NCBI GenBank assembly: GCA_020137815.1
Contig: CM035351.1
Coordinates: forward strand, 3,906,001-3,970,000
DNA: 64,000 nt
Origin: Hormiphora californensis
Lineage: Eukaryota > Animalia > Ctenophora
Direction of reading: 5' to 3'
In this document: positions 12,401-63,316 of the stretch, piece after piece
Numbering within the stretch: the first letter of the stretch is position 1
How the letters are laid out: the number at the start of each line of letters is the position of its first letter
Position numbers and translations under genes: made by a program
Notes under the pieces: model-generated
Seen by the model: only the letters and a program-made list of their open reading frames with translations
Databases searched by the model: none
What the model was told of the DNA's origin: nothing

Positions 12401-15400
12401 CAACCGATATTGTTACCGAGGAACGTGGCGAACCCGCTGAAATTGAAAAAGAGCGGCAGCTAGCAAGAGCAGATAGTGTTCAATCAAGACAGTCTTCTGT
12501 CAGAGCATCTACTTCTCCCTCCCGGATACCCGTCAGAAAACTGTCCAGGGAGAGCTTGGGCCGTTCATCTGTCTCCTCTACGACGAGTAGAGATTCGAGG
12601 AAGTTCGCTTACAGCAAGAACTCAAGCCGAGCGTCCAGTCCGGGATCGAGTCGAGTTAGGGCAGACAACGCAGAGAAAAGAGCAGCAGCGGACTTCCTAG
12701 GATCTCTTCAGTTCTCCAGCTCTAGAGACAGTTTTAGTTCAGCTAATTCTGTAAAGAAATCCAGGGAATCTCTAAAATCACAATCCCGAGACAGTGTCAC
12801 ATCAGAGAAATTAGAGAGGAAAACTGAAGAATCTATTCATTCGCAGTCTCGAAACAGTGTTGCTTCGGACAGGAAAGAGTCTCTAAAATCCCAGTCTCGA
12901 AACAGCGTTGTTTCAGATGGTAAAGATCCTCTAAAATCCCAATCCCGAGACAGCTTCACTTCCTCGTCCTCAGGTTCTACTGTCGAGAACCTGAAGAAGC
13001 ACTTTGAGAACCTGGCTTCATCCAGTACAGTGGAAGAGCCAGTCCAGCTTCCATTCTCTAACTCAGAGGAACAAACAAGGATGGCGACCTCCCGGGAGCT
13101 ATCCAAGATCCGGGACCCTGAACTAGCGTGTGAGAGCATAGAACTGGATGTGGATGAGCAGCACCTGGAGATGAGCAGTAGTGATGAGGAGTGGGAGTTC
13201 CCAACTGTTAATGCTGGTCACATGGTGGCAGTTCACGCTGATATGGGTGAACCCTACTCAACCAACCCCAGACCCGAGTCTACCGAACCCTACTCTACTG
13301 CAGTTGTTGTTGACAGGAAGGAGTCTATAGATGTCCCTCCCACAGAGACATCTTCAATATGTTCTGGGTCATTCATAAGTGATAACAGCTACCTCAGGAA
13401 GATAATACCTGAGGAGCCACAAAGTGAGCACAGCTCTGGGGTTTGGGATGGTGTGGAACCGCTGAATCTGAAATCATCAGCCAGAACAAACCAGTGCAAG
13501 TACGTGGTGATAGGACGTGCCCCACATGAACCTCTAGACGAGAACACTCTTCATTTCCCGACCATGGACGCTTATAGACAGTGGGCGGCCAACCAGTCCC
13601 TGTCTGATAGGAGTCTTGACGCAGAGTCATTTGTTGGTATGTACGATGATAGCGAGGAAGAAGAGGGCATGCTGTACAAACTGGTAAACCTTCAAACACC
13701 CATCTCAGAAATGGATGACTCACCCTTCAAGGAACCCATCACACCACTACACAAACTAAGACCTGTCCTGCTGGAGGAGGAGAGTATCGCTTCGTCGGAG
13801 GAGGGTGGAGAACACAAGAGTGTTCTCTCTGTTTACTCCAACCCCACCATCGTCTCATCAGGTTCATCTACCAGTACTATTGTGGACGGAGAGGAGGAGG
13901 AGGAGGGAGAGTACAAACTGGAGAAGGAGATCCGGCAAAACATGATGTATGAGCCTCCCCCGGAATACTTTGATTCGGAGGACCGGTGTACCAGTGCCCA
14001 ATCTAGAGATCTACCCGAGATGAAACGTGCCCCATCCCAAGCTAGCATCTCCAGTTCTATCTACTCGGCTGTTAGTAAGGATCTGGGGCACTATGCGGAT
14101 ATGTTTAACAACCAAATGCAGCCAGGCAACCAACCAGAGTCAATCCTGGACGGGGAGAGGTTTAGTAGGAAGTATAGTAAACGTGTGAGTGCCCTGAAAC
14201 CAGGTCAACAGCCCGTTCAAAGATCACTATCTCATCACGGTGCAGGGTCAGCTGCTACTCTCCCTCGGAACAGGAATAGTACCCACAGCTCTGAGGAGAG
14301 GGTGAAGCAGACATACACGTTGCCTAGGAAACCGAGGGAGAACACTCCAAACCTGACTACCTTCCTTAACCAGACTTATGGGGGTCGGGGTGCCTCCCCT
14401 AACGATACTAACACTAGTAGGCTACTGCACAGTAAATCTCTGACGATGGGTAGGGATAACAGGAAGTTTGAAGGGGAGGACTGGATGAATTCTCTACCTA
14501 GACACCTGGGAAGGAAACCTTATCTGAGATCACCTAACATGCGACAGGTAAATTACAGGTAAATTGCAACTCAATTACCTGAGCTAGGTAATTGAGTTGC
14601 AATTTGACTACAATTTCCATAGTCCATTTTCCTGAAAGAACTGGAGATGTTATTTGAGACTGACATCATAGAATCTAGGCTTGTAATATCATGGTACCTT
14701 CACGATTTGTTCATGAACAACTCTCCTCCCAGATTGATTGGAGTATGATGGGGAGAAAGGGAACAGAACCAGGCTTCCTCATGAATCCTACTGGAATAGC
14801 AGGTATCATTTTTATTGGCATTTGGTTCTGATCAGACATGACATCTTCCCTGCTCTGAAACATCTAGCTGCTAGAAACTCCTTTACCCATTACGACCCAA
14901 TACACTCTGACCACATCTATTAACTATTGCAATCCAGTATCCCAGTTGATTCCCCCCATTTCTTCAGTTGATGAGCATTGTGTGGCGATATGCGAAGAAG
15001 GGAACGGTAGAGTGCAGATATTCATTGAGGACGAGAGCGAGTACTGTATTAACAGTCTGACTAACCCCTGCGGGATAGCCATGAGTCCCGATAATATCTT
15101 TGTGTCTGACACTGACAAACACGTGGTCAAGATCTATGGAAGAGCTGCACATGAGGTCGCCGTGCTAGGTATGGACTTTCATCAGGAACAAGTTTTAGAT
15201 CTGTCAATGGAAATGAATTTCGGAAGTATTATCATATTCAAAGCAATATTGTTCATGGAGCTGTACTGTCCCATCCCTGTCCCTCTAAGGGACCACCTTA
15301 CAAAAAGTACCTCTGATCAGGGACCAACTAACCTCTCCCTCTAGGTGGTCCAGGAACGAGTAAAGGGCGGTTCAGAGAGCCCCGTGGGATTGCTTACAAC

Positions 15401-41862: not shown

Positions 41863-44800
41863 ATGATCCGGAGTATGTTGTTGGTGGCTCTGATTCTGGG
41901 TATGGTTCACGGTGAGGATGATGTCATCAATGATGCCCCTCCTTCCATGGACATCCCTGTGAGTGTAACGCGTGTTCTAGCTGTATATTTCTAGTACCTC
42001 TGTCCTCTTCAGTTATTAAAGTTTACCTCTCTGGTTAATTATTTGTTTAATAACCGTACCCAATACATCTCCCGATCAATAATCCACCCCCCCCCCTTTA
42101 GGAAGGCGCTCCTCCCGGCACTCAGGCCATGTCCTTCAAACAACCAGCCCTCACCGAGGAAGAGGAGAAGGGTCAGTGGTTCCCTGTTCGGTATCAGTGT
42201 GACGCTTGCCACATCGTAGTACACAATGTGAGTATAATCATACCATGCTGTGATCTCTCTCTACTGTACATGTCCTTGACTTGAAAACATCTTGAGGCAT
42301 TCGTAACATATAATATCTTCCCCCTCTCGCCCAGCTTAGTCGAGCATAGCAACCTCGACCCTCGTTGTAACAACGTATACTCCCATACCATCTTGGTTCT
42401 GGGTTCGTAACATATAGACCCCGCCGGCTCAAATAGACGCACGGCGCGCTCAAACAATTTGCACTGGTCTATTGGGCCGTGCACTGCCGTGAGTTTGTGT
42501 CTCGATAGACGCACGCCCTCTGACAGATTTGTGTAAAGATCACCAAGAATCACTGGAAACATGATAAAATGACTTGGTAACACAAGAGGGAGTGTGTGTA
42601 CAACCTACAACGTTCTCTGTCTAGATTTGGCGCCCGCCAGTCTGTTGCAACTGTTGCTCATGACCCACAATTAACTGCTATCTCTCTCTGCATTCCACCC
42701 TTTGAAACTGTTACAACGATTGTTTCGAGTGTGTAGGAATGTAGAGAGGCAATCTGTAGCTTTATTTCCAACTGTTTGACCCGTTTTGTGTGAGCTCTCT
42801 GTTTGAAAACCACGTAAATTGTGCTTGTTTTGCATCTAGGTGCCCGCCAGCGGGGTCTATAGAACACAACTCCCTCCCTTGCGTGCAGATATACCTGTAA
42901 ACCCCTCGCTGACGCTCGGGATTTACATAGTACATAACTCCCTCCCGCGCGGGCATCTATTCAATAGACGCACTGCAGAGCAGTGCGTCTATTGAGCTGT
43001 AATGCACGGGTCCCGAAGGGACCGTGCATTACAGCCCTGTAAATCCCGAGCGTCAGCGAGGGGTTTACAGGTATATCTGCACGCAAGGGAGGGAGTTGTG
43101 TTCTATAGACCCCGCTGGCGGGCACCTAGATGCAAAACAAGCACAATTTACGTGGTTTTCAAACAGAGAGCTCACACAAAACGGGTCAAACAGTTGGAAA
43201 TAAAGCTACAGATTGCCTCTCTACATTCCTACACACTCGAAACAATCGTTGTAACAGTTTCAAAGGGTGGAATGCAGAGAGAGATAGCAGTTAATTGTGG
43301 GTCATGAGCAACAGTTGCAACAGACTGGCGGGCGCCAAATCTAGACAGAGAACGTTGTAGGTTGTACACACACTCCCTCTTGTGTTACCAAGTCATTTTA
43401 TCATGTTTCCAGTGATTCTTGGTGATCTTTACACAAATCTGTCAGAGGGCGTGCGTCTATCGAGACACAAACTCACGGCAGTGCACGGCCCAATAGACCA
43501 GTGCAAATTGTTTGAGCGCGCCGTGCGTCTATTTGAGCCGGCGGGGTCTATAGGGCTGTAATGCACGGTCCCTTCGGGACCCGTGCATTACAGCTCAATA
43601 GACGCACTGCTCTGCAGTGCGTCTATTGAATAGATGCCCGCGCGGGAGGGAGTTATGTACTATACAAGGTGGCCCATAAATTATGAGGCCGGGGGACGAG
43701 CTGTACCTCCGAAACGGTGATAGTTGTGCAAAAACAAACTACGGGAACATGCTGGAACAATTCCTTGGTAACTTTTTGCAAATTTTGAGTTTTTTATTCA
43801 AAAGTTCATTTTTCATTCATGAACTATTTACACGTTCATTAATGAATTAAGGACTGTAATTTACCGAGAGTGAGCCATTTTGTTTGGGTTGAATTCATCT
43901 TTCCAATGTGCACCATGAAAATCAAATTGAAGCACCAGGTCACATGGCAGTTGAGAAAATGCACATGCATGATTTTGGCTCTTCCTGCGACTTTCAATCA
44001 GCTGTATCACGGCTACCTTTTGTTCAATCTTTTTAAAAATTTGGGTGAACATTGGATAAGCAAAGATCTTTGCTCACAAGAAAAATCAAGGTCAAAACTG
44101 AAAGTTCATTTTTGAGTTTTGGTAGTTCATTCCACTCATTCAGGAACCAACATCCCTAAAGTGATGAAAAGTGATTGGTTTTGTTTGGCCCATACCCTGC
44201 GATGATAGAGAGGTGTAAAAACACGTTTTCCGGGCTAGTTAGTGGGTGTCCATGTGATCATGATGATATCTGACACCTCTTCTGAGCCATAATCAAGGGA
44301 TTTTCTCGAATTCAAGCATGTGATTTCGGTTATCTGTGATTGGTATCGTGCAGCAATGTTGAGAGATCTCATAGCACCTCAAAAATTATGATTAGCTCAA
44401 TGAAATGAGTTTATTTATGATAGAAGATATTAAAACAGACGTCAAAATGAACTAAACTACCATTTTCGATCCAAAATCAGCTCATTTCATTGAGCTAATC
44501 ATAATTTTCGAGGTGCTATGAGATCTCTCAACATTGCTGCACGATATCAATCACAGATAACCGAAATCACATGCTTGAATTCGAGAAAATCCCTCAATTA
44601 TGGCTCAGAAGAGGTGTCAGATATCATCATGATCACATGGACACCCACTAACTAGCCCGGAAACGTGTTTTTACACCTCTCTATCATCGCAGGGTATGGG
44701 CCAAACAAAACCAATCACTTTTCATCACTTTAGGGATGTTGGTTCCTGAATGAGTGGAATGAACTACCAAAACTCAAAAATGAACTTTCAGTTTTGACCT

Positions 44801-46462
44801 TGATTTTTCTTGTGAGCAAAGATCTTTGCTTATCTAATGTTCACCCAAATCCTTATTATAATTTGCAAATGAACGTCGTGAGGAGGATGATGTAGTATCC
44901 ACACGTGCAAATAGTGGGGGGTTGCCAAGGAGGTGGCTTGGGAGGGGTATTGGAGGTGGGATACTGCACGTGCATGTTAGTGATCGCAAAAGGCAAGCTT
45001 CCCCTCGTCCGACCCGAAGTTGGGAGATTCGTCGAAACAGCAACCTTCAGGCTGTTAAAATATTTTTTGATGCGCGGCGGCCTGTTTATTATAGTAGGGT
45101 CGGTTGTGGGAAGTTGGGTCTGGAATTTTAAATTTGACTTTCTGATATGATTAGGGACTCTATAAAAAGTCCAAAGTACCATCCCACAGGTCTCTACCAC
45201 CCCCGGTTCACTAATTAGTCGTAATTATGTGATTTATGACGTTATCGCCAATTAGCACTAATAATACCAGTTCCTGGTCACTTTGAGCTTAGATTTTGAT
45301 ACCAGCTGATAGAGGATCACTAGATTTTTCCGTTTGGCTGGCGGTTGGCTGGCACCACGTGGGATTAGGGGTTTAGGTCGTCGTGGGAGGTCGACATTGG
45401 TCGCGTTCGATCGGGCTCGATGAGGTGATCAAAAGCTAGTGGGCCAGACCTTGGCCCCACCCCGTTCTTGGCTTATTGGGCTTTTTCTGTTTCCCGCCAA
45501 AATATTTTCCCGCCATATATATGCTTTATTTTTTTTGCCCCTGCACTGCCACTGCACATTTTTTTAATTGCTTATAATTAATTGGATAGTTAATTTTGAA
45601 TATTCCCATTTTTTGTAGACCTTTCTATATGCTTTAAGAGCATTCCTACAAAGTTTCAAGTCGATATTTATAGCAGAACGGAAAATATTTTCAAATGCTC
45701 AGGGGCAATGCTCAGGGGCACCATAAAAATGTCCGTTTTTTAATTGCTTATCACTCATTGATTACTTAATTTTGAATATTCCCACCTTTTGTAGACCTTT
45801 CTATATGCTTGAAGAGCATTCCTACAAAGTTTCAAGTCGATATTTCAAGCAGATCGGGAGATAATTGCGACTCAGGTGCCCCTGGGCCACTTTTGTTAGT
45901 GCGAGGGCAATTTTAAAATTTTAATTGCTTATAATTAATTAATTAAGTAAAAAATCAAAAATCAGGCTCCGTGGTGACTCTTAGTTATACCACTAGAACA
46001 TGCCTACAAAGTTTTAGATCGATATGTCAAACAGTGTGGCCACAATTTGAATTTTAAAATTGCCCAGGGGCAGTTTTTTCAAATGCTCGGGGGCAAAATT
46101 CAGGGGCACCAGAAATGTCCATTTTTGCATGCCTATAACTCATTGATTACTTAATTTTGACTATTCTAACTTTTTGTAGATCATTTTTTATGCTTGAAGA
46201 GCATTCCTACAAAGTTTCAAGTCGATATTTCAAGCAGATCGGGAGATAATTTCGGCTCAGGGGCAATGCCCAGGGGACAGAACACGCCATGCTCAGGGGC
46301 ACGGTGCAGGGGCTACTTTTTAATTACCTATAATTAATTAATTAGGCAAAAAATCAAAAATCCGGCCACGTTATGACACGTAGTTATACTACTAGAACAC
46401 GCCTACAAAATTTCAGGTCGATATCTCAAAAAATGTGGCCACAATCGCTGCCTGAAATTTGC

Positions 46463-49934: not shown

Positions 49935-51958
49935 TCAAACATCCTGATAGGGGGGTGGGGACAGTTAGATATATGAATTCGACGTTAATGTCTCGAAACA
50001 ACTATCAATTCACATGCGGGAGAGAGGGAGGGGTATAATTGGCTAGCTCTACAGTCGACCCATCTCTCACCGGGTAGGCGGACTCTAGTACTAACGGACT
50101 CTATATCTAAACCCAAGGAGGACTCTATATCTAACCCTAACCTTTACCCTAACCCCTAACCTCAAACCCAAATAACGGCCATAACACTTCTAAATGATTT
50201 CCGGCCGAAATCTCGAGTTCGCATTTCGTTGGAACTTAGAACATAACTAGGAGGGTTAGATGATAACTTACAGTGTTCTCAATTTGTAGGCTATACTCGG
50301 ATACATTATCCTGTTCCTGTAGTTTATACCCCTTGCCTTTAGTTTTAACCAAGGCCAACCGTGGCTTCGTCTTGCACAGCTCCTTGTATCCCTCATACCT
50401 GTACAGAGGGATTGTTAGGGACTGATAATGGTCGTCAGTTGACAAGCTAAACTAATGGAGCTCAACGGCCGATGCGATTAACATTGGCCTACCAAGTCCC
50501 CACTCCCCCAATGTCCAAAAAGTCGGCAGGTGTATACTTTTCCAGCGAATGGGAGGTAGCGCGCTCAGTAAGTGCTGACGGCTGTCACTTTTCAGCGCGC
50601 GCAGTGTACCATAACGAGTGATGGGATAAAGGTCGGGGCACTGTAACTTGTATTGCATACGATATGTTGTAGGGAGAGCTGCACAGCTATTATATAACAG
50701 GTCTGTGCAGCACATGAAGCCACAGGTGTTGATTCACACTCTGTTTTTAAAATCAAATTGCAATTAGAGACTTGTACACGCTCACAAAATTATGAATGAG
50801 ATTCAGCAGCCCAAATTACCCTGTACAGTGCTATTATAATACTACACGCAGCTGTCTTTTAATCGCTCATTTTTTTATATTTCTCTCTCTATCTCCCTCT
50901 CTCTCTCTTTCTCTCTCTCTCAAATCCCAGTTACGTCAGTGTGCAATACTTCAACCACATATCATGTACTTGAAGGGGGGACGTGAGTGTAAAAGTCTTC
51001 AGGTAGACCTCTATGATAATAGCATACACAGATAATACTACAGACAGCATGGCTGACAACACGGCTCCTGGAGTAGTGACTTTTGAAGAGACTAAGACAC
51101 GATAAAGAGTTCGACTAGTAAGAAGAGGGGACAGGTATGGATTACTTCTGCACTGACTTCAACCCTAGCTAGGGACGGTGCTTACCGTAAGGGTTTAGGG
51201 CGGCAGAGCATGTATAGGAGATTCCTGGCGCACCCTTCTGTAAAGGGATTATCACTGCTAGTGTACTTGTGTGTCACCTGTGTTAGAGAGTAATTAAATG
51301 GTTAGAGGGTTGTGTGGGAAATAATACCCTCTCTTCCTAACCCCTCTATTTCTTTAATTCTCAATTTGTACCACCCCTCTTCTCCCTCTCTCTCTCTTTT
51401 TCTTGCAGTTAACCCCCATGTTGTAATAAAATTGCAATTTCCTGGTATTGCTAAATCTCACAAGATTTTGTCACCAAACCGCGATTTTCTTCCACCCTGT
51501 ATTATAATGCTAGGGGGGGGGGGGTATGCCCCACACGGTATATCAGCATTTTGGTTAAGGGAATTTGTAGGTTATATGTATATAGTTATCAAAAAACCAC
51601 TTCACATCTGTTGGAGTGAAACTTTTTTGGTGTATGATCTGAGATCCTATTGGAGCACTATGTACGTAGAAAACCTTGGTTATAAGTCCTCAGCTCCAAA
51701 ATTGGCCCCCAAATGACGCTAAACTAATCGACTAGCTTTAAACGGTTTAATAATTGATTAATTTTGAATAATTATTCGAATAATTACCTTTTCATTTGTT
51801 GTGAGACCAAGGCGTATGAGGACAATGTGAAAACTAAGAAGCCCCAGAACAGGCACCAGGGATATGACGCAGAACACCGCCACTATCAAGCTGAGAGAGG
51901 TGTGGGAGTTAGAGAGAGGGAGAGGAAGAGGGCGAGAGAGAGAGAGAGAGGGAGAGGA

Positions 51959-52171: not shown

Positions 52172-55038
52172 ACTCTCTCTCTCTCTCTCTCTTTCTCTCT
52201 TTCTCTCTCTCACTCTCTCTGAGTAGGTAGACAAACATCCGGTTTCCCTCCGGCCAAGTCGTTTCATAGGCAGCGCACACCATCACATTATCCCACCCAA
52301 CCGTGACCCAAGTCAATAGTCATAATACATATGGGGTACATATTGTGTATTGTATATATGTGGTACATGATATTATATCTGTCAAGTGTGATCGTTCCTG
52401 AATAATATATAGGGTGTCCCATTATATATATTCTAAGTGCCGGTTAGAATACATGGAACACCCTGTATATATCAGGTTTGGGGTTGGAGGGACACCCATA
52501 TATCATAGGAGAATCTAAACGAGTTTCCAACTTGCCCCAATTAGTTCCCCTGTTTAATAAGCTCTTACCTAGCGATGTCTGACCAGAGCGGCTGGACGGT
52601 TGCACACCGGAGAATGCAGATTGAGAGGGTGAGTAGGATGTGAAGATTTAGGCAGGTGAGGAAGCAGAAGAAAAATTTGTAGTTCCTTTTACCAACACAG
52701 TTGTTAACCCAAGGACAATGGTGGTCAAAATTCTGAAATGTAACATTTAAATAATTGTACACTTGCATGGGAAATGTTACACATGATGTATGTAAATAAC
52801 ACAAGCGTGGGAAATAAGATGTGTGAACCGGTGATAAATACCGATGTCCGATAATAAGACCCAAAAATAGAGTTCACACGCTCGCAAAATACATATGCAC
52901 ATATTATACATATCTATGTAGTGTTTCTCACCTCTACACATCTATTACACACACTACAGTGTGATGTATTTCTCACCTCTACACATCTATTACACACACT
53001 ACAGTGTGATGTATCTCTCACCTCTACACATCTATTACACACACTACAGTGTGATGTATTTCTCACCTCTACACATCTATTACACACACTACAGTGTGAT
53101 GTATCTCTCACCTCTACACATCTATTACACACACTACAGTGTGATGTATTTCTCACCTCTACACATCTATTACACACACTACAGTGTGATGTATTTCTCA
53201 CCTCTACACATCTATTACACACACTACAGTGTGATGTATTTCTCACCTCTACACATCTATTACACACACTACAGTGTGATGTATTTCTCACCTCTACACA
53301 TCTATTACACACACTACAGTGTGATGTATTTCTCACCTCTACACATCTATTACACACACTACAGTGTGATATATTTCTTACCTCTACACATCTATTACAC
53401 ACACTACAGTGTGATGTATTTCTCACCTCTACACATCTATTACACACACTACAGTGTGATGTATCTCTCACCTCTACACATCTATTACACACACTACAGT
53501 GTGATGTATTTCTCACCTCTACACATCTATTACACACACTACAGTGTGATGTATCTCTCACCTCTACACATCTATTACACACACTACAGTGTGATGTATC
53601 TCTCACCTTTACACATCTATTACACACACTACAGTGTGATGTATTTCTCACCTCTACACATCTATTACACACACTACAGTGTGATGTATTTCTCACCTCT
53701 ACACATCTATTACACACACTACAGTGTGATGTATTTCTCACCTCTACACATCTATTACACACACTACAGTGTGATGTGTTTCTCACCTCTACACATCTAT
53801 TACACACACTACAGTGTGATGTATCTCTCACCTCTACACATCTATTACACACACTACAGTGTGATGTATCTCTCACCTCTACACATCTATTACACACACT
53901 ACAGTGTGATGTATTTCTCACCTCTACACATCTATTACACACACTACAGTGTGATGTATTTCTCACCTCTACACATCTATTACACACACTACAGTGTGAT
54001 GTATTTCTCACCTCTACACATCTATTACACACACTACAGTGTGAAGTCCTGGGTGGCCGGTAGAACTGGCACGTCTCACAGAACTTTAAGCGGATACTGG
54101 TATTTCGGATTACTACGTATTTAAATAGCGGGCTACGTAAATCATTCTCCGTATCCTCTGGGATTTCTGAAATGCAATGTCTTTGAAATATATCGATAGG
54201 AAGTGATCAAAGTGTCTACAATATCATATCTGACACCAAGGTTATAAAGAAATCTTTATTGGACACGCCCTTGATATCTCGATAACTTCTTCCTAATAGT
54301 GAGGAAGCAAGTTAGGGCGCGGTCGTGAGTCACGACTTCTACGATGCTGACGTACGTCGCGAGGTCGAGGCTGCGTAGCAGCCGAGACCGAGCAAAAATT
54401 TGCAGCCTAGCGAATAGAATCTTGCAGCCTAGCTGAAGGCTTAGAAAAATATTTTTTTAGATTTCTGAAATTCGGGGCACTGGGGTCGTGACCATAAAAC
54501 TGGATATACTAGATAATACTAGAGGGATTCTATAGAGTTGGATGGGGGAACGTACCTTTTTGTAAGACACCAGGGTCGGTAAAGGCCGTCTGAAGGTAGT
54601 ATATTACGGTGAACAGGAATATAATAACGGATACGACTGCAAGGGGCAGTATTTTTAGGACACCCATATCCAACATGAGTTGCCGTAACCTGAGATGTGT
54701 TGGAGTTACAAAATTAGATCACACCACCACTACAGAGTACTGTAACCGTACTTACTAACTCCCCCTCCCCGGCCCCACATATGTGTACATTTCCCTCTCC
54801 CTACCTGAGAACACAGCTCAGCTGATTGTACACCCCCCTCCCCCCCCCCCCGCTATTACTCACGTGAAGGCGTAGAAGACGCCACTGACAGCTACAAGGA
54901 TTGAAAAGGCAGCGAGAAAGAGCATGGCCCTACAGCAGGCGCCATCCCCTGAGCAACCCTTGAAGTTAGGGTCATCCTGAAGGTGGCTATGGCGAGCCAG
55001 TTTGAGAGAGGGGGCAGGAGCTGCTCTATGCCATGGTG
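49935..55038 (-). CDS. DHHC palmitoyltransferase, ZDHHC5/8-like; start codon not firmly placed
   Basis: Minus-strand exons 55038-54864, 54689-54556 (TDPG motif), 54166-54012 (DLRSPLFK...[25 protein letters not shown]), 52732-52569 ([21 protein letters not shown]), 51890-51788 (GLTTNEK), 51277-51186 ([10 protein letters not shown]), 50398-50272, 49943-49935. The product ends ...IENTDV*, a class I PDZ-ligand-type end as in ZDHHC5/8. Confidence 0.88.
52921..54045 (-). repeat. 45-bp tandem array (25 copies) derived from the ZDHHC exon/5' splice-site junction
   Basis: Unit (minus strand) GTGAGAAATACATCACACTGTAGTGTGTGTAATAGATGTGTAGAG = [15 protein letters not shown]. First donor at 54011, last at 52931; the 1080-bp difference is 24 x 45. 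Confidence 0.97.
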
Positions 55039-56687
55039 CTGTGGGAATAGGTCGTAGAGTAAGATCAGAAATGGGGACTAATATAGTATAGCAACCCACA
55101 CATAATATGTAATGATATCATAACGAAGCAAGCAACAACAAAAAATTCAAAGTGTCAACAAATTGATTTCTGTAGAGCCAACAAGACAAGATGAAATGGC
55201 AAATGGCAATATAAACATTAAACCGTATATTGAAACGTCTTAGTATTTACTTGTTCCGAGAACTTCTTAGTTTTAGATTTTGCGAACTGGTTCATGGTTG
55301 GGGTTTCGGTACCGCAACAATTCAGACAATTGATATGATTTGAAATAAATACACGGGTGGAACACAAATATGGATGCACACTCAACTATAGAAAAACATT
55401 GATAAAAAACGCCAACACACATGTAAGAACAGTTCCAAACTGTCCCTTGCGAGACACAGATACAGTTCCATAAAGTCAGTCGAAATATCATACCCCTTTT
55501 TTTGAAAGGTGATGTTTTGTTGATAATCTTAATTATATAGTTTCAAGTTGTCAGGAACCAGAGATACCGCAGAAATAATCGTTAACACCAGGGGTGAGAA
55601 GTGAGAACAGTTGAAAACAGACTTTGGTTACTCTGTGCGTATATTTTAGGAGTTGTGACCAACATTGAAGTACAATATGCAGGTCTGAAGCATCTCGTAT
55701 TTACCTGAGCAGACTGGTGCAACACAGTATGAGCTACACTTACAGCAACAATATTTTTTCGCTGCACAATATGAACAACAATGAATACAGAAGTCTGAAG
55801 ACAGAATATTAATTCACGATGTTTCTGGAAATCGTAGTGATAATTGAAGAGTAAGCACTAAGCACTAACCACTAAGAATTTAGGATAGTATTTTATCAAA
55901 ATTTTGAGAGAATTGGGATGGCGCCATACGCTAAGGGTCCAGTTAGAGATTTTGCGACCGAAGTTAGTTACAATGGTGCAGGCCCCTGCTGACACTGCTG
56001 CGCGCGCCACTCTAGATGCAAATCACATCGAAAACCCTGCTAGTCAACGAAGATTTCGCGCGCACAGGGACTCTCCCAGCTTGCGCCAGTTGCAGATTGG
56101 CTGCAACTGGAGCGTTAGGGTGATCACAATCCCACAGATGGACATGTACAGCGGGCTACAGTTGATACCGTGAAACAGTAATATGTGACACTAGAAGTTT
56201 GCTTAATTACAGCAGTCGGGACTCGGGAGAGCTGGAAAGAGAAAAGAAGCTGTCTTGTTCCAAAAAATCAAAAAAAGAAAAACTTAAATTTTTTTCAGGA
56301 TCAGGAGCATTTTGGAAGACACTTTTTGTGCGCACCGCGCGGTGCAGTGCGTACAAAAAGCGCGTAAAATATTTGCGCGGCTGAAAATAATGACGTCATC
56401 TCTTGCCTTCTGGCTATTTGCCGGTTTCAACCCAACCTCTAATCTTTACTCTTTACAGTTCTGCTTGTTTCAAACAAGGATATCCGGAGACATGTCAGGT
56501 ATTATATCGGTGGCACGGTGATGTTGTTGGGCAACTGCAAGTCAAAGTAAAACAGCGTTTATTCTTTTGCTCAAATAATGCGTTATTAAATATTAAATAT
56601 TCTGAGATAAATACTACACTTTCTCACTTCGCAGCTAGTCGGAGTCCTTTATACCCCTCACACTGACAAGTGGCAAAAAAGTCCAAT

Positions 56688-59600
56688 TTAACAAAGTCCA
56701 CAAGTGTGAGCACAGTGGCTGCTGTAACGTTCAGAGGCACACCACCCTTCACCAAGTTTACTCTTCCAGCGGGAACACTCCGGGGCGTCCTGCTTAAAAC
56801 AGTCACCTGAATAGAGAGATATTAATTCGAGGAATGAGATTCAGCATATAATAAGACTAAGAGAGGAAAGGGACTTTTCATCAATGCTGCAAAGTGTAAA
56901 ATCTTTCTGGCCTAAATTAAATGTAGCCAAAATTGGTCACTAATCATTGCTTTTTGAACGAGATTTATTGCCATGCTACGCAGTCTGTCCATTCGGGCTC
57001 GCATAAGCTCACACCGGGCCTTCGGCCCGGTGTGAGAGCCAACAGACTGGGAACATGTCAAGAAATTTAGGAAACTTTCATTATTGTTTAATTAATTAAT
57101 CATAACTTACGTTTTACAACTTCGATCTCAACTTCATTGGCCAGTACTTCAACTTCATTGACTTTGCAAAGTCCACAAGTGTGAGCACAGTGGCTGCTGT
57201 AACGTTCAGAGTCACACCACCCTTCACCAAGTTTACTCTTCCAGCGGGAACACTCCGGGGCGTCCTGCTTAAAACAGTCACCTGCAGATAATACAGAGAT
57301 ATTAATTGGAATTTGGAGGAATGAGATCCTAATTGTTTCAGTCCTGTAGATTTCACTAAAGATTCATTGAAATTTAGGAACTTTTGTCACTTCAAAGTCG
57401 GCCTACAGCAAAAACTATTCATATCCTATCAATCATAAGTCATAACTTACGTTTTACAACTTCGACTTCATTGACTTTGCACATCCCACAGGTGTGAGCA
57501 CAGTGTTTGTTGTACCGGTCAGAGGCACACCACCCTTCTTTGAGTTCCATGTTCCACCGGGAACACTCCGGGGCGTCCTGGGAACTGCAGTCAGCCACTC
57601 CGTGACCTGTAATACAGAGTTGTGGACATGGGGTTCAGTTAGGCGACTATAACTGTCATGCATTCCCTCAATTTCCCACCAACTCAGATTTGGGCGGGGC
57701 CACCTGAGCGACCAAAATAAAAATCCGAAATAGAACTCGTAGAGGCATTAACGCCATTTGCAATGATACCTAAGAAAATTCAGAGGACTTACGTTCTTCG
57801 ATCTCAACTTCATTGGCCAGTACTTCAACTTCATTGACTTTGCAAAGTCCACAAGTGTGAGCACAGTGGCTGCTGTACCGTTCAGAGTCACACCACCCTT
57901 CACCAAGTTTACTGTTCCAACGGGAACACTCCGGGGCGTCCTGTTTAAAACAGTCACCTGTAGATAATACAGAGATATTAATTATTGGAGGAATGAGAGT
58001 TTTTATTGTGCTGCAAACGTATAAGATCTTTCTGGCCTAATGTAGCCAAAATTGGTCACTAACTATTACTTTCATAATAAGCTTTGTTTAGTTCAAACTC
58101 ATTTAATTTTATTTTAAAAGAGGGTCGAGCTAGGCAACATCAGCTCAAGTAATAATAACTTACGTTTTACAACTTCGACTTCGACTTCATTGACTTTGCA
58201 CATCCCACAGGTGTGAGCACAGTGTTTGTTGTACCGGTCAGAGGCACACCACCCTTCTTTGAGTTCCATGTTCCACCGGGAACACTCCGGGGCGTCCTGG
58301 GAACTGCAGTCAGCCACTCCGTGACCTGAAATACAGAGTTGTAGAAATGGGGTTCAGTTAGGTGACTATAACTGTCATGCATTCCCTCGTTTGGAACGCT
58401 CAGATTAGGTTGGAGACACCTGAGCGCCACAAAATTATTTGTAATTAACCAGAATAAATGCCCAAAATAGAACTCGCAAATGGCAAACTTAGCAAATGAT
58501 ACCTAAGAAACAACATAGGACTTACGTTCTTCGATCTCAACTTCATTGGCCAGTACTTCAACTTCATTGACTTTGCAAAGTCCACAAGTGTGAGCACAGT
58601 GGCTGCTGTAACGTTCAGAGTCACACCACCCTTCACCAAGTTTACTCTTCCAGCGGGAACACTCCGGGGCGTCCTGCTTAAAACAGTCACCTGAATAGAG
58701 AGATATTAATTGGAGGAATGAGATCCTAATTGTTTCATTCCTGTAGATTTCACTAAAAATTGATTGAAATTTAGGAACTTTTGTCACTTCAAAGTCGGCC
58801 TACAGCAAAAACCATTCATAACCTAAATCAATCATAAGTCATAACTTACGTTTTACAACTTCGACTTCATTGACTTTGCACATCCCACAGGTGTGAGCAC
58901 AGTGTTTGTTGTACCGGTCAGAGGCACACCACCCTTCTTTGAGTTCCATGTTCCATCGGGAACACTCCGGGGCATCCTGGGAACTGCAGTCAGCCACTCC
59001 GTGACCTGAAATACAGAGTTGTGGAAATGGGGTTCAGTTAGGTGACTGTCATGTATACCCTCGTTTTGTGCGCTTGGATTAGGGCGGGGCCACCTGAGCG
59101 CCACAAAAAGTAGGCAAGCTGTACTAATTGACCAAAATATATTATATCCGAAATAAAACTTGCAGAGGCATTACGGGATTAACGCCATTTACAACCCTTA
59201 AAGGTTGACAAGATACCTAAAACTTTTCGTATATCGTCTTATTTTGATTTATCATTAATTTTCAGCATTTTTTCAGAATTTTTTGTCGGCTAGAAAAAAA
59301 TTCGAAATAGGGGGTCTACCGATATTGTCAGCACTGGTTTTACTGGGCACACTCACTGCGTCTCGCAAATTGAAATTCACGTTTCCGGTTCCTCAAAAGA
59401 TAGCTACTTGATCTTGGTTGCGTTGGATTGGTCTCAATAAGACCTTTCCAACGCTACCAAAACGGTTTCTGTATCTCATCAGGAACCGGAGATATTAGGG
59501 TATCAATTTTTAAATTGCGCCTCTCGTTTATCAGTAGACCCCCTATTTTGCACATATTTCTAGCCGACAAAAAATTCTGAAAAAATGCTGAAAATTAATG

Positions 59601-60032
59601 ATAAATCAAAGTAAGACGATATACGAAAAGTTTTAGGTATCTTGTCAACCTTTAACCAATATAATCAGGGAGGAAGATTCCTAAGAAACAACATATGACT
59701 TACGTTCTTCGATCTCAACTTCATTGGCCAGTACTTCAACTTCATTGACTTTGCAAAGTCCACAAGTGTGAGCACAGTGGCTGCTGTATCGTTCAGAGGC
59801 ACACCACCCTTCACCAAGTTTACTCTTCCAGCGGGAACACTCCGGGGCGTCCTGCTTAAAACAGTCAGCCATTCTTCTCTCGGGAGCACCTGAAAACAAG
59901 GATATCGTGTTAATTAGCTAATCAATTAATTGGGTTACGAGTTAACTAGGAGAACATGATCACCATGGTCACCAGAAACATACCGAGGACAAGGACGGCC
60001 AGTAGGGCAGCGGAAAGAGCAACTCGAATCAT
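56688..60032 (-). CDS. Secreted multi-ShKT (BgK/ShK-like) polyprotein precursor, 442 aa, 8 domains
   Basis: Exons 60032-59984 (signal peptide MIRVALSAALLAVLVLG), 59889-59704, 59005-58850, 58690-58526, 58325-58164, 57957-57793, 57606-57451, 57281-57111, 56806-56688. All internal exons are phase 1-1. Each exon after the first carries a 6-Cys C-x7-C-x11-C-x8-C-x3-C-x2-C ShKT motif. Confidence 0.9.
59202..59651. mobile_element. TTAA-targeting MITE (Kolobok-like AGG termini) in intron 2 of the ShKT gene
   Basis: TTAA at 59198-59201 and 59652-59655 flank AGGTTGACAAGATACC...GGTATCTTGTCAACCT; about 100 bp of near-perfect TIR. Confidence 0.8.
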
Positions 60033-61108: not shown

Positions 61109-62609
61109 ACTCATATAAATTGAATGTTCGAATCTCCTTCTTGATTGTAAATGGGTTATAACTGCACTCGCTATGCCAGACTAAAAATGACTAATAGGAC
61201 TCAAGAGGGGGGAGTAATTAAACTACATGACCCCCACTCTCTCCCAGCCGCCCCTCACACTGAATCAATTATAAGTTGACTTGCACTAGTTACAATATTC
61301 TGGTGATGTGATCCCTGGTATAGTTACTAGTGATCCTAGTTTAGAACAGTGATCCAGTGAGAGTGAGAGCAGTGGTAATTAGGTTAACCCTAATTATTGT
61401 CTTAGGGCACACGCCACAAGCTGCTTGCGAATTGGATAACTAGGTTCTAGTTTTTGACGTGAAATATCACCCCTCAAATAGTAGTCCACCCCCTCTACAA
61501 GGAGACATTGTTAAAGGGAGAAACTAATTTAATCTTCGCAGCCCCGTTTTCCTCTCAAACTGATCTTTTAGTAGCTCCTTTATGAAATTGCCAGAGTTTC
61601 CGGGGCCCCCCCTCTTTTTATTTGTTACAACCCCCACTTCAAACTCCTGCTTTATTCTCCTAGCTATATTGATTGATATATTGCTGTTGCTTCATGTCTG
61701 AGGAAGCACGTCGCATCCTAATTCTAGTAGTGCAGTGCTTGGGAGACTACTAAACCGTTAACCACCAAGGTTAAAGTCCCTATACGTTGTCGAGTAACAA
61801 CCAATACCAGGTTTCAGGAGGTTGTACTAAACCTAACTGGCGAATGGTTTAGTAGTCTCATGTTATATGCTGCACTGACGGGAATAAAAGCAAATTAGGG
61901 AGAATGGTGGGAAGATTCTGTGAGTTTTAGTTTTAGATTGAGTATTATATTCACAAGAGATTCTGAGCAGTGTCTACTCCCTTATTTTCTTATTCTCACT
62001 GTTCCTCTAAACTTGTAGCCCTCAATGTCTGTTCAAATTTCCATTGTGCACCATGCGTACTTAGTGAGTACTCACTATTCTAATCTAGCGCTTATTTGCC
62101 AATTGTATTCCACCAAAACCCGATTACTATCTGTTTTTCTAAAAACTCCCTCCCTCTTCTTGTCTCTGATTGGTCGAGACACTATAGCACACGATCACGT
62201 GACCTGCGAGAGCGAGCGAGAGATCCCCCTCCAGCTTCACTGCAGTAGGCGGATCAGTAGCGTGCTGCGTGAGGGGACACGCGCAAAGTGATACATAGCT
62301 AGTTGTGTCTGCACCAGTACAGATCATGTGATACATGTGTGGGGGCGTGAGCTGCTTTTGACCCCCACTGAGTATTTCAGATAATTGGGCTTGTTGGGTG
62401 ATCTGTTTCGGGTTGCTTGTTTTGTGACCGCTCTCTTTATTTCTCTCTCTTTGTGATTGTTGGTGCTGCATAGGTCTCTGTATTAGAATGAAGTTATAAA
62501 GCTCTAACTATGTTGTATTAATGGACCCCCTACTGTTTATTGTCTTGCATTCGATTGAGCAAATAATCAGTCATGACCTGAAAAGGTTCACGCCTCTCCC
62601 TTTCTCTTA

Positions 62610-63316
<707 letters not shown>

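What the first reader, a model, noticed from the sequence alone, without database searches (positions are those of the whole stretch)
52921..54045. Array of 25 in-frame splice donors inside the DHHC cysteine-rich domain of a ZDHHC5/8-like gene
Seen: the last 33 nt of the exon ([11 protein letters not shown]) plus the first 12 nt of the intron (GTGAGAAATACA) are tandemly amplified. The unit is 45 bp, has no stop codon in the coding frame, and every copy keeps a GT donor (variants AAG|GTGAGA and GAG|GTAAGA still fit the consensus). Known: this segment lies in the zinc-binding cysteine-rich domain just before the catalytic DHHC. Inference: choosing donor n would insert n x [15 protein letters not shown] (0-24 copies, up to 360 aa and 72 extra Cys) without a frameshift. 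That would give a ladder of isoforms that could tune or inactivate the enzyme or bind extra zinc. If only the first donor is used, the spliceosome ignores 24 near-identical donors closer to the acceptor, which is also notable and would show intron growth by splice-site duplication.
Basis: partly seen in the sequence, partly recalled or inferred. Interest (0 to 1): 0.8.

Follow-up and report, generated by a model that had tools for sequence, protein, structure and literature searches.

The report
Repeated splice donor in ZDHHC intron
A 45-base piece covering the end of one exon and its splice signal is copied 24 extra times in a protein-lipidation gene of a marine animal (probably a comb jelly), but the spliced RNA found joins the exons with no sign of the copies, so this is most likely an ordinary silent repeat of a kind already known from human and lancelet genes.

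Summary
The array is real: 24 extra 45-bp units give 25 GT donors, and the frame stays open through all of them. It is also present in DNA from two studies of this species (roughly 23-81 copies by contig depth in one). A close relative has a single copy, so the array is a recent gain that grew intron 3 from about 200 to 1,279 nt. The isoform ladder is not supported. All 4 of the 5 RNA runs that cover the exon run straight into the next exon, with no contig on the repeat junction; an even ladder would give that junction about 12 times the exon depth. Leakage of about 10% to donor 2 would not be detected, and the RNA donors' genomes were not seen. The class is known: human F7, CBS, 6-16/IFI6, LMNB2, PDGF and amphioxus 'mirages'. 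This scan has also noted it on other DNA. One modest point of value: products of downstream donors would be in frame, so nonsense-mediated decay should not hide them, which makes this a clean natural test of first-donor choice. Verdict: new member of a known kind, low interest.

The parts
54864..55040 (-). First exon seen of the ZDHHC5/8-like gene (start codon not fixed)
   Evidence: RNA contig X7 covers 54862-55040 and skips 174 nt to the next exon; tblastn
54556..54689 (-). Exon 2
   Evidence: RNA joints in X7; open model
54012..54166 (-). Exon 3, 155 nt, encoding the first half of the DHHC cysteine-rich domain; its last 33 nt are the exon part of the repeat unit
54006..54011 (-). Donor 1, the one used in the RNA contigs
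   Evidence: loose ends at 54012 continue with the letters of exon 52732 in X7, X8, X9, X10
52932..54011 (-). 24 extra 45-bp units (12 nt intron start + 33 nt exon end), each followed by a GT donor
   Evidence: present in DNA runs X2 and X4
52733..52931 (-). Donor 25 plus the 199-nt remainder of intron 3, inferred to be the ancestral intron
   Evidence: In organism B the single donor is followed by sequence matching this stretch (27 of 28 aligned letters, 2 small indels, compared by eye)
52569..52732 (-). Exon 4, encoding the catalytic DHHC motif
49935..51890 (-). Exons 5-8 (51890-51788, 51277-51186, 50398-50272, last exon from 49943 with the stop after two codons)
   Evidence: tblastn with P0001, stop-free model of exons 1-7; last exon read from the sequence

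Best explanation
This is a minisatellite whose unit straddles the exon 3 / intron 3 junction of an intact ZDHHC5/8-like gene; it likely arose recently from one 45-bp duplication that then expanded, and the spliceosome likely uses the first donor so that the 24 copies are removed as intron and a normal enzyme is predicted. Shown: the array, its presence in two studies' DNA, one copy in a close relative, and RNA contigs that join exons 3 and 4 with no repeat junction. Inferred: (1) origin by slippage or unequal crossing-over at a 2-3-nt match (AC/ACT) 45 nt apart on either side of the donor, then turnover that spread one variant to 7 units; (2) choice of the 5'-most donor by exon definition or co-transcriptional first-come commitment, as shown for human F7; (3) near neutrality of the copies.
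For: RNA: 4 of 5 RNA runs laid had contigs here; all 4 run unbroken from unique exon 3 through the shared 33 nt into exon 4, with zero depth on the unit junction. Depths are 8.05, 8.28, 3.1 and 5.4. An even ladder would put about 97, 99, 37 and 65 on that junction, and last-donor-only twice that. Relative: organism B DNA (X12) has one donor followed by the post-array intron, and no depth on the unit junction. None of the 5 nearest relatives fetched whole, nor P0001-P0004, has a repeated segment. A search with the 415-aa read-through frame found 6 proteins among 10 candidates, each matching at most 17% of it. Variants: 3 of 5 distinct changes alter the amino acid, against 30 of 45 expected for random transitions. 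Precedent.
Against: The RNA runs are metatranscriptomes: whether those animals carry the array was not seen, and X8 differs from the window at 1 of 99 bases. 3 of the 4 are one study, so there are two studies. All data are short-read contigs at depth 3-8; the 33 nt before every donor are identical, so the inference rests on unbroken contigs and absence of the junction, and contigs drop rare variants. 10% use of donor 2 would give depth under 1. X9 and X10 reach only 8 and 12 letters past the junction. 4 of 5 variants fall in the 12-nt intron part (P = 0.02), a weak hint that the exon-derived 33 nt are more constrained; homogenisation with the real exon or import of intronic alleles would also explain it. 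In 6-16 and CBS two downstream donors are used.
Confidence: 0.76

Rival explanations
1. First donor dominates, but donors 2-3 are used at a low, reproducible level (6-16/CBS pattern), giving in-frame +15 and +30-residue forms that probably misfold or are inactive and have no function.
For: Two pseudo-sites are used in 6-16 and CBS (IFI6 passage). Donors 2 and 3 are identical to donor 1 for 33 nt upstream and 6 nt downstream and would give exons of 200 and 245 nt. The RNA depth cannot exclude about 10%.
Against: No RNA contig carries the unit junction in 4 of 4 covered runs. F7, LMNB2 and PDGF use only the first site.
Confidence: 0.12
2. The array is a selected splice dial: donor choice inserts 0-24 cysteine-rich units that tune or silence the enzyme or bind extra zinc.
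For: Frame open and all Cys/His codons intact in 24 of 24 units. The read-through frame folds as a beta-solenoid with mean pLDDT 90. Variants lean to the intron part, P = 0.02.
Against: No RNA support. In-frame and stop-free arises by chance in 7-33% of such duplications. Only 8 of 45 possible transitions alter a Cys/His, so 0 of 5 is expected about a third of the time. The array is absent from a close relative. The meaningless opposite-strand frame also folds with the same strand pattern (pLDDT 69.5), AlphaFold2 is known to do this for perfect repeats (PMC11795689 abstract), and the model has no solved match above TM 0.23. The cysteine-rich domain spacing is unbroken in all relatives seen.
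Confidence: 0.05
3. The array is polymorphic, the RNA came from single-copy animals, and carriers mis-splice the gene.
For: No DNA from the RNA donors was seen; X8 is slightly divergent.
Against: 2 of 2 organism A DNA runs laid (two samples, two studies) hold the array. X7, X9 and X10 are 99+% identical to the window. The rest of the gene is intact.
Confidence: 0.05
4. The array, or most of its length, is an assembly artefact.
For: The window's end (62594-63312) looks error-rich. The exact copy number is not fixed: 23-81 from X4 depths.
Against: Unit contigs at depth 5,735-8,091 against 100-357 for entry and exit in X4; very high summed depth in X2; the share of the main loop in X4 (0.71) is close to the share of donors with A at +7 in the window (18 of 25).
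Confidence: 0.02

Closest known systems
Human F7 intron 7 37-bp VNTR (Borensztajn et al. 2006, PMC1557585; I read part 1 of 6 with abstract and introduction, plus 7 passages)
   Same: First unit spans the exon-intron boundary; identical downstream donors stay silent; only the 5'-most is used.
   Different: F7 repeats 4 exon bases in a 37-bp unit with 5-9 copies. Here 33 exon bases are repeated in a 45-bp in-frame unit with 25 donors, in a non-mammal.
Human 6-16 (IFI6), CBS intron 13, LMNB2 (100 bp) and PDGF intron 4 (81 bp) minisatellites (known only as cited in PMC1557585 and one passage of PMC4526556; Turri et al. 1995 was not held)
   Same: 10-25 reiterated donors. 6-16 has 25 pseudo-sites; the 81-bp PDGF unit is also a multiple of three and only the authentic donor is used.
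   Different: 6-16 and CBS also use two downstream donors; no such use was seen here at depth 3-8.
Amphioxus 'mirage' minisatellites (Adh3, BflGb6, BflGb9; PMC3087553, 5 passages read)
   Same: Tandem copies of an exon-intron boundary in a marine invertebrate; reported not to disturb normal splicing; repeat turnover within the cluster.
   Different: Different phylum; here more copies (25 against 3-6 in BflGb6), 98% alike, and dated by a single-copy relative. Length instability was not shown here.
Human ZDHHC5 (PDB 9oa6)
   Same: Best solved match to P0001, E 1.1e-63, with the cysteine-rich domain aligned without a gap across the exon 3/4 junction.
   Different: About 300 residues here against 718; orthology was not tested with a tree.

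Membership tests
Exon-intron junction minisatellite (F7 type, 'mirage') | Head-to-tail array of a 10-160-bp unit | tested here: met
   45 bp x 24.9, 98% matches
Exon-intron junction minisatellite (F7 type, 'mirage') | First unit spans the authentic exon-intron boundary | tested here: met
   RNA junction at 54012; unit = 33 nt exon + 12 nt intron
Exon-intron junction minisatellite (F7 type, 'mirage') | Splice signal reiterated in the copies | tested here: met
   25 of 25 GT donors
Exon-intron junction minisatellite (F7 type, 'mirage') | The most upstream donor dominates and normal mRNA is made | tested here: met
   4 of 4 covered RNA runs; limits: depth 3-8, contigs only, donors' genomes unseen
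Exon-intron junction minisatellite (F7 type, 'mirage') | Copy number varies between alleles | tested here: inconclusive
   X4 gives 23-81 by depth; X2 depth is a sum over many contigs and gives no count
Multi-donor isoform ladder (6-16/CBS type) | mRNAs spliced at downstream repeat donors | tested here: inconclusive
   None seen; an even ladder or last-donor use is excluded if these animals carry the array, 10% use of donor 2 is not
Recursive-splicing ratchet points | A pyrimidine-rich acceptor directly before each regenerated donor | tested here: not met
   Each junction reads AG then GT, but the array has 0 YYYCAG on the minus strand, and the gene's 6 acceptors are all CAG after pyrimidine-rich sequence
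DHHC palmitoyltransferase (PF01529) | Pfam score above the gathering cut-off and full Cys/His spacing with DHHC | tested here: met
   83.9 and 55.5 bits for the two sides, cut-off 28.7; spacing pattern found in the first-donor model
ZDHHC5/8 subfamily | Closer to ZDHHC5 than to ZDHHC9/Erf2/ZDHHC20 | tested here: met
   218.7 bits against 144.6, 95.7 and 87.4 for P0001
ZDHHC5/8 subfamily | Clade membership on a tree; enzyme activity | not tested
   No tree was built; activity needs an assay

The most novel reading that the evidence does not exclude
In some tissue, stage or stress of this animal, downstream donors are used on purpose and insert a variable number of Cys/His-rich 15-residue units (perhaps a zinc-binding solenoid) between the two halves of the DHHC zinc domain, so that repeat length and donor choice dial ZDHHC5/8 activity; a young, species-specific splice rheostat in a catalytic domain.
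Probability: 0.05. Interest if true: 0.7.

Novelty: new member of a known kind. Interest (0 to 1): 0.2.

Why it matters
As it stands it is a tidy example, not a new mechanism. It shows an intron growing about six-fold by copying its own donor, dated by a single-copy relative. Because downstream-donor products would be in frame and stop-free, nonsense-mediated decay should not remove them, so their absence reflects donor choice itself. If the animal is a ctenophore (recalled lead, not shown), the 5'-most-donor rule described for human F7 would also hold in a very early animal branch, and would beat the nearest-donor choice that would recreate the ancestral 199-nt intron. If the ladder were real, it would be a repeat-length dial inside an enzyme's zinc domain, which would be surprising.

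Tried and rejected
No own genome is held, so the frequency of such arrays in this genome could not be counted; among the 6 other longer-period arrays of the window checked, none has more than one GTRAG. RNA run X20 had no contig on the stretch: no evidence either way. X2's summed depth (85,829 against 218-298 on flanks) is no copy number. The AlphaFold2 beta-solenoid was rejected as evidence: same pattern from the opposite-strand frame at lower confidence, known bias, no solved match above TM 0.23. The Fer4 hit has 0 stretches passing on their own and reflects repeated CxxCxxC. Recursive splicing was rejected. Cluster look-up gave no names. Turri et al. 1995 was not held. Paper searches for a ctenophore case and for the gene id found nothing relevant; one search found no paper with all four terms; these searches are too narrow to say the case is not in print. 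Look-ups of earlier notes by place and by sequence were empty.

Full report
Observation. The minus strand holds an exon at 54166-54012 followed by 24 more copies of a 45-bp unit made of the first 12 nt of the intron and the last 33 nt of the exon. TRF scores it as 24.9 copies at 98%. There are 25 GT donors, at 54011 minus 45k, and the coding frame is open through all units until 5 codons after the last donor. 14 of 24 units are identical. There are 5 distinct variants: one shared by 7 units and four single ones.

The gene. With the first donor, exons 1-7 translate without a stop, and the full Cys/His spacing with DHHC is restored across the exon 3/4 junction. Both sides score above the Pfam DHHC cut-off. 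The nearest database protein P0001 is 96% identical over exon 3, and its best solved match is human ZDHHC5, aligned without a gap across this junction. That two zinc ions bind the conserved Cys and His of this domain is from a passage of PMC9332573; that the repeated segment supplies ligands to both ions is recalled, not tested. P0013, 98% identical to part of P0001, carries an id whose style I recall as Pleurobrachia gene models, so the animal is probably a ctenophore; no call confirms this.

Is it real? 20 runs were listed and 8 were laid. Both organism A DNA runs laid, from two samples and two studies, hold the unit junction. In X4 the shared core has depth 8,091 and the main loop 5,735, against 357 for the entry contig and 100 for the exit contig, which gives 23 to 81 copies. 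X2 shows far higher depth on the unit than on its flanks. Either sample could be related to the assembly, but not both studies are likely to be its source.

Age and origin. In organism B (X12, about 5 differences in 99 exon bases) one contig runs from unique exon 3 through the donor straight into sequence matching what follows the last copy in the window, and nothing covers the unit junction. One run of organism B was laid. So the ancestral intron was likely about 200 nt and is now 1,279 nt. This assumes gain in A rather than precise loss in B; the high identity of the units favours gain. A short AC/ACT match lies just before the unit and 45 nt later, which fits slippage or unequal exchange; this is inference.

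Which donor is used? 5 RNA or probable RNA runs were laid; X20 had no cover. In X7, X8, X9 and X10 a single contig runs from unique exon 3 to 54012 and continues with the first letters of exon 52732, and depth on the unit junction is zero. Because the 33 nt before every donor are the same, a junction alone cannot name the donor. The argument is that any downstream donor puts the unit junction in the mRNA, which would add a contig and tend to break the path. An even ladder predicts depths of about 37-99 there, against exon depths of 3-8. Limits: contigs drop rare forms, 10% use of donor 2 would be missed, three of the four runs are one study, X8 is slightly divergent, and the RNA donors' DNA was not seen.

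Selection on the repeat? An in-frame, stop-free unit arises in 150 of 450 or 196 of 2841 possible duplications here. 3 of 5 variants change the residue, against 30 of 45 expected. Against my reading, 4 of 5 variants lie in the 12-nt intron part (P = 0.02, one test of several) and none alters a Cys or His. The read-through frame folds as a confident beta-solenoid, but the opposite-strand frame gives the same pattern at pLDDT 69.5, the bias is published (PMC11795689, abstract), and no solved structure matches above TM 0.23. No database protein with the repeat was found among 10 candidates, a weak search.

Known systems. PMC1557585 (part 1 of 6 and 7 passages) describes the class: F7, LMNB2 and the 81-bp PDGF repeat use only the authentic donor, 6-16 (25 pseudo-sites) and CBS also use two downstream ones, and in F7 the most upstream functional site wins. 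It also notes that older duplication experiments gave conflicting results. PMC3087553 (5 passages) describes amphioxus 'mirages' that do not disturb splicing; I took this lead from earlier scan notes, which report similar arrays in rays, sharks, a sea urchin and other invertebrates and which I did not check. Supplements of these papers were not read.

Verdict. A real, young, junction-spanning minisatellite, most likely spliced out whole from donor 1 (0.76), with possible low leakage (0.12) and a small chance of a functional ladder (0.05). New member of a known kind; interest 0.2.

Noticed in passing
window 59980-56620, minus strand: A gene with a signal-peptide-like first exon and 8 near-identical phase-preserving exons, each encoding a six-cysteine unit that recalls ShKT domains (recalled; the one exon scanned had no Pfam hit at E 0.01). 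Two exon types alternate and their introns are duplicated too.
   Followed up: partly
window 42413-43663: Long perfect inverted repeat: 515-nt arms, 100% complementary, 110 nt apart, with a further 122-nt pair; could be a foldback element or an assembly feature.
   Followed up: no
window 44034-44855 and 59198-59655: Near-palindromic elements with 200-nt and 127-nt arms, MITE-like; the second sits in an intron of the cysteine-rich gene.
   Followed up: no
window 54271-54500: Intron 2 of the ZDHHC gene holds high-copy dispersed sequence (depth about 10 times flanks in X2, also present in organism B).
   Followed up: no
window 50280-49935, minus strand: The ZDHHC protein is short (about 300 residues) and ends in T-D-V, which fits a class I PDZ-binding motif as recalled for ZDHHC5/8; the last exon adds only two residues.
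   Followed up: no
window 12844-12954, plus strand: 48-bp in-frame repeat (2.3 copies, 82%) inside a long serine-rich open frame.
   Followed up: partly
window 62594-63312: A 720-bp GA tract with 15% indels that looks error-rich, so microsatellite sequence in this assembly may be unreliable.
   Followed up: no
P0013: This gene model from a related genome starts out of frame at the end of exon 3 and reads into the intron before joining exon 4, probably a prediction error at the same junction.
   Followed up: no
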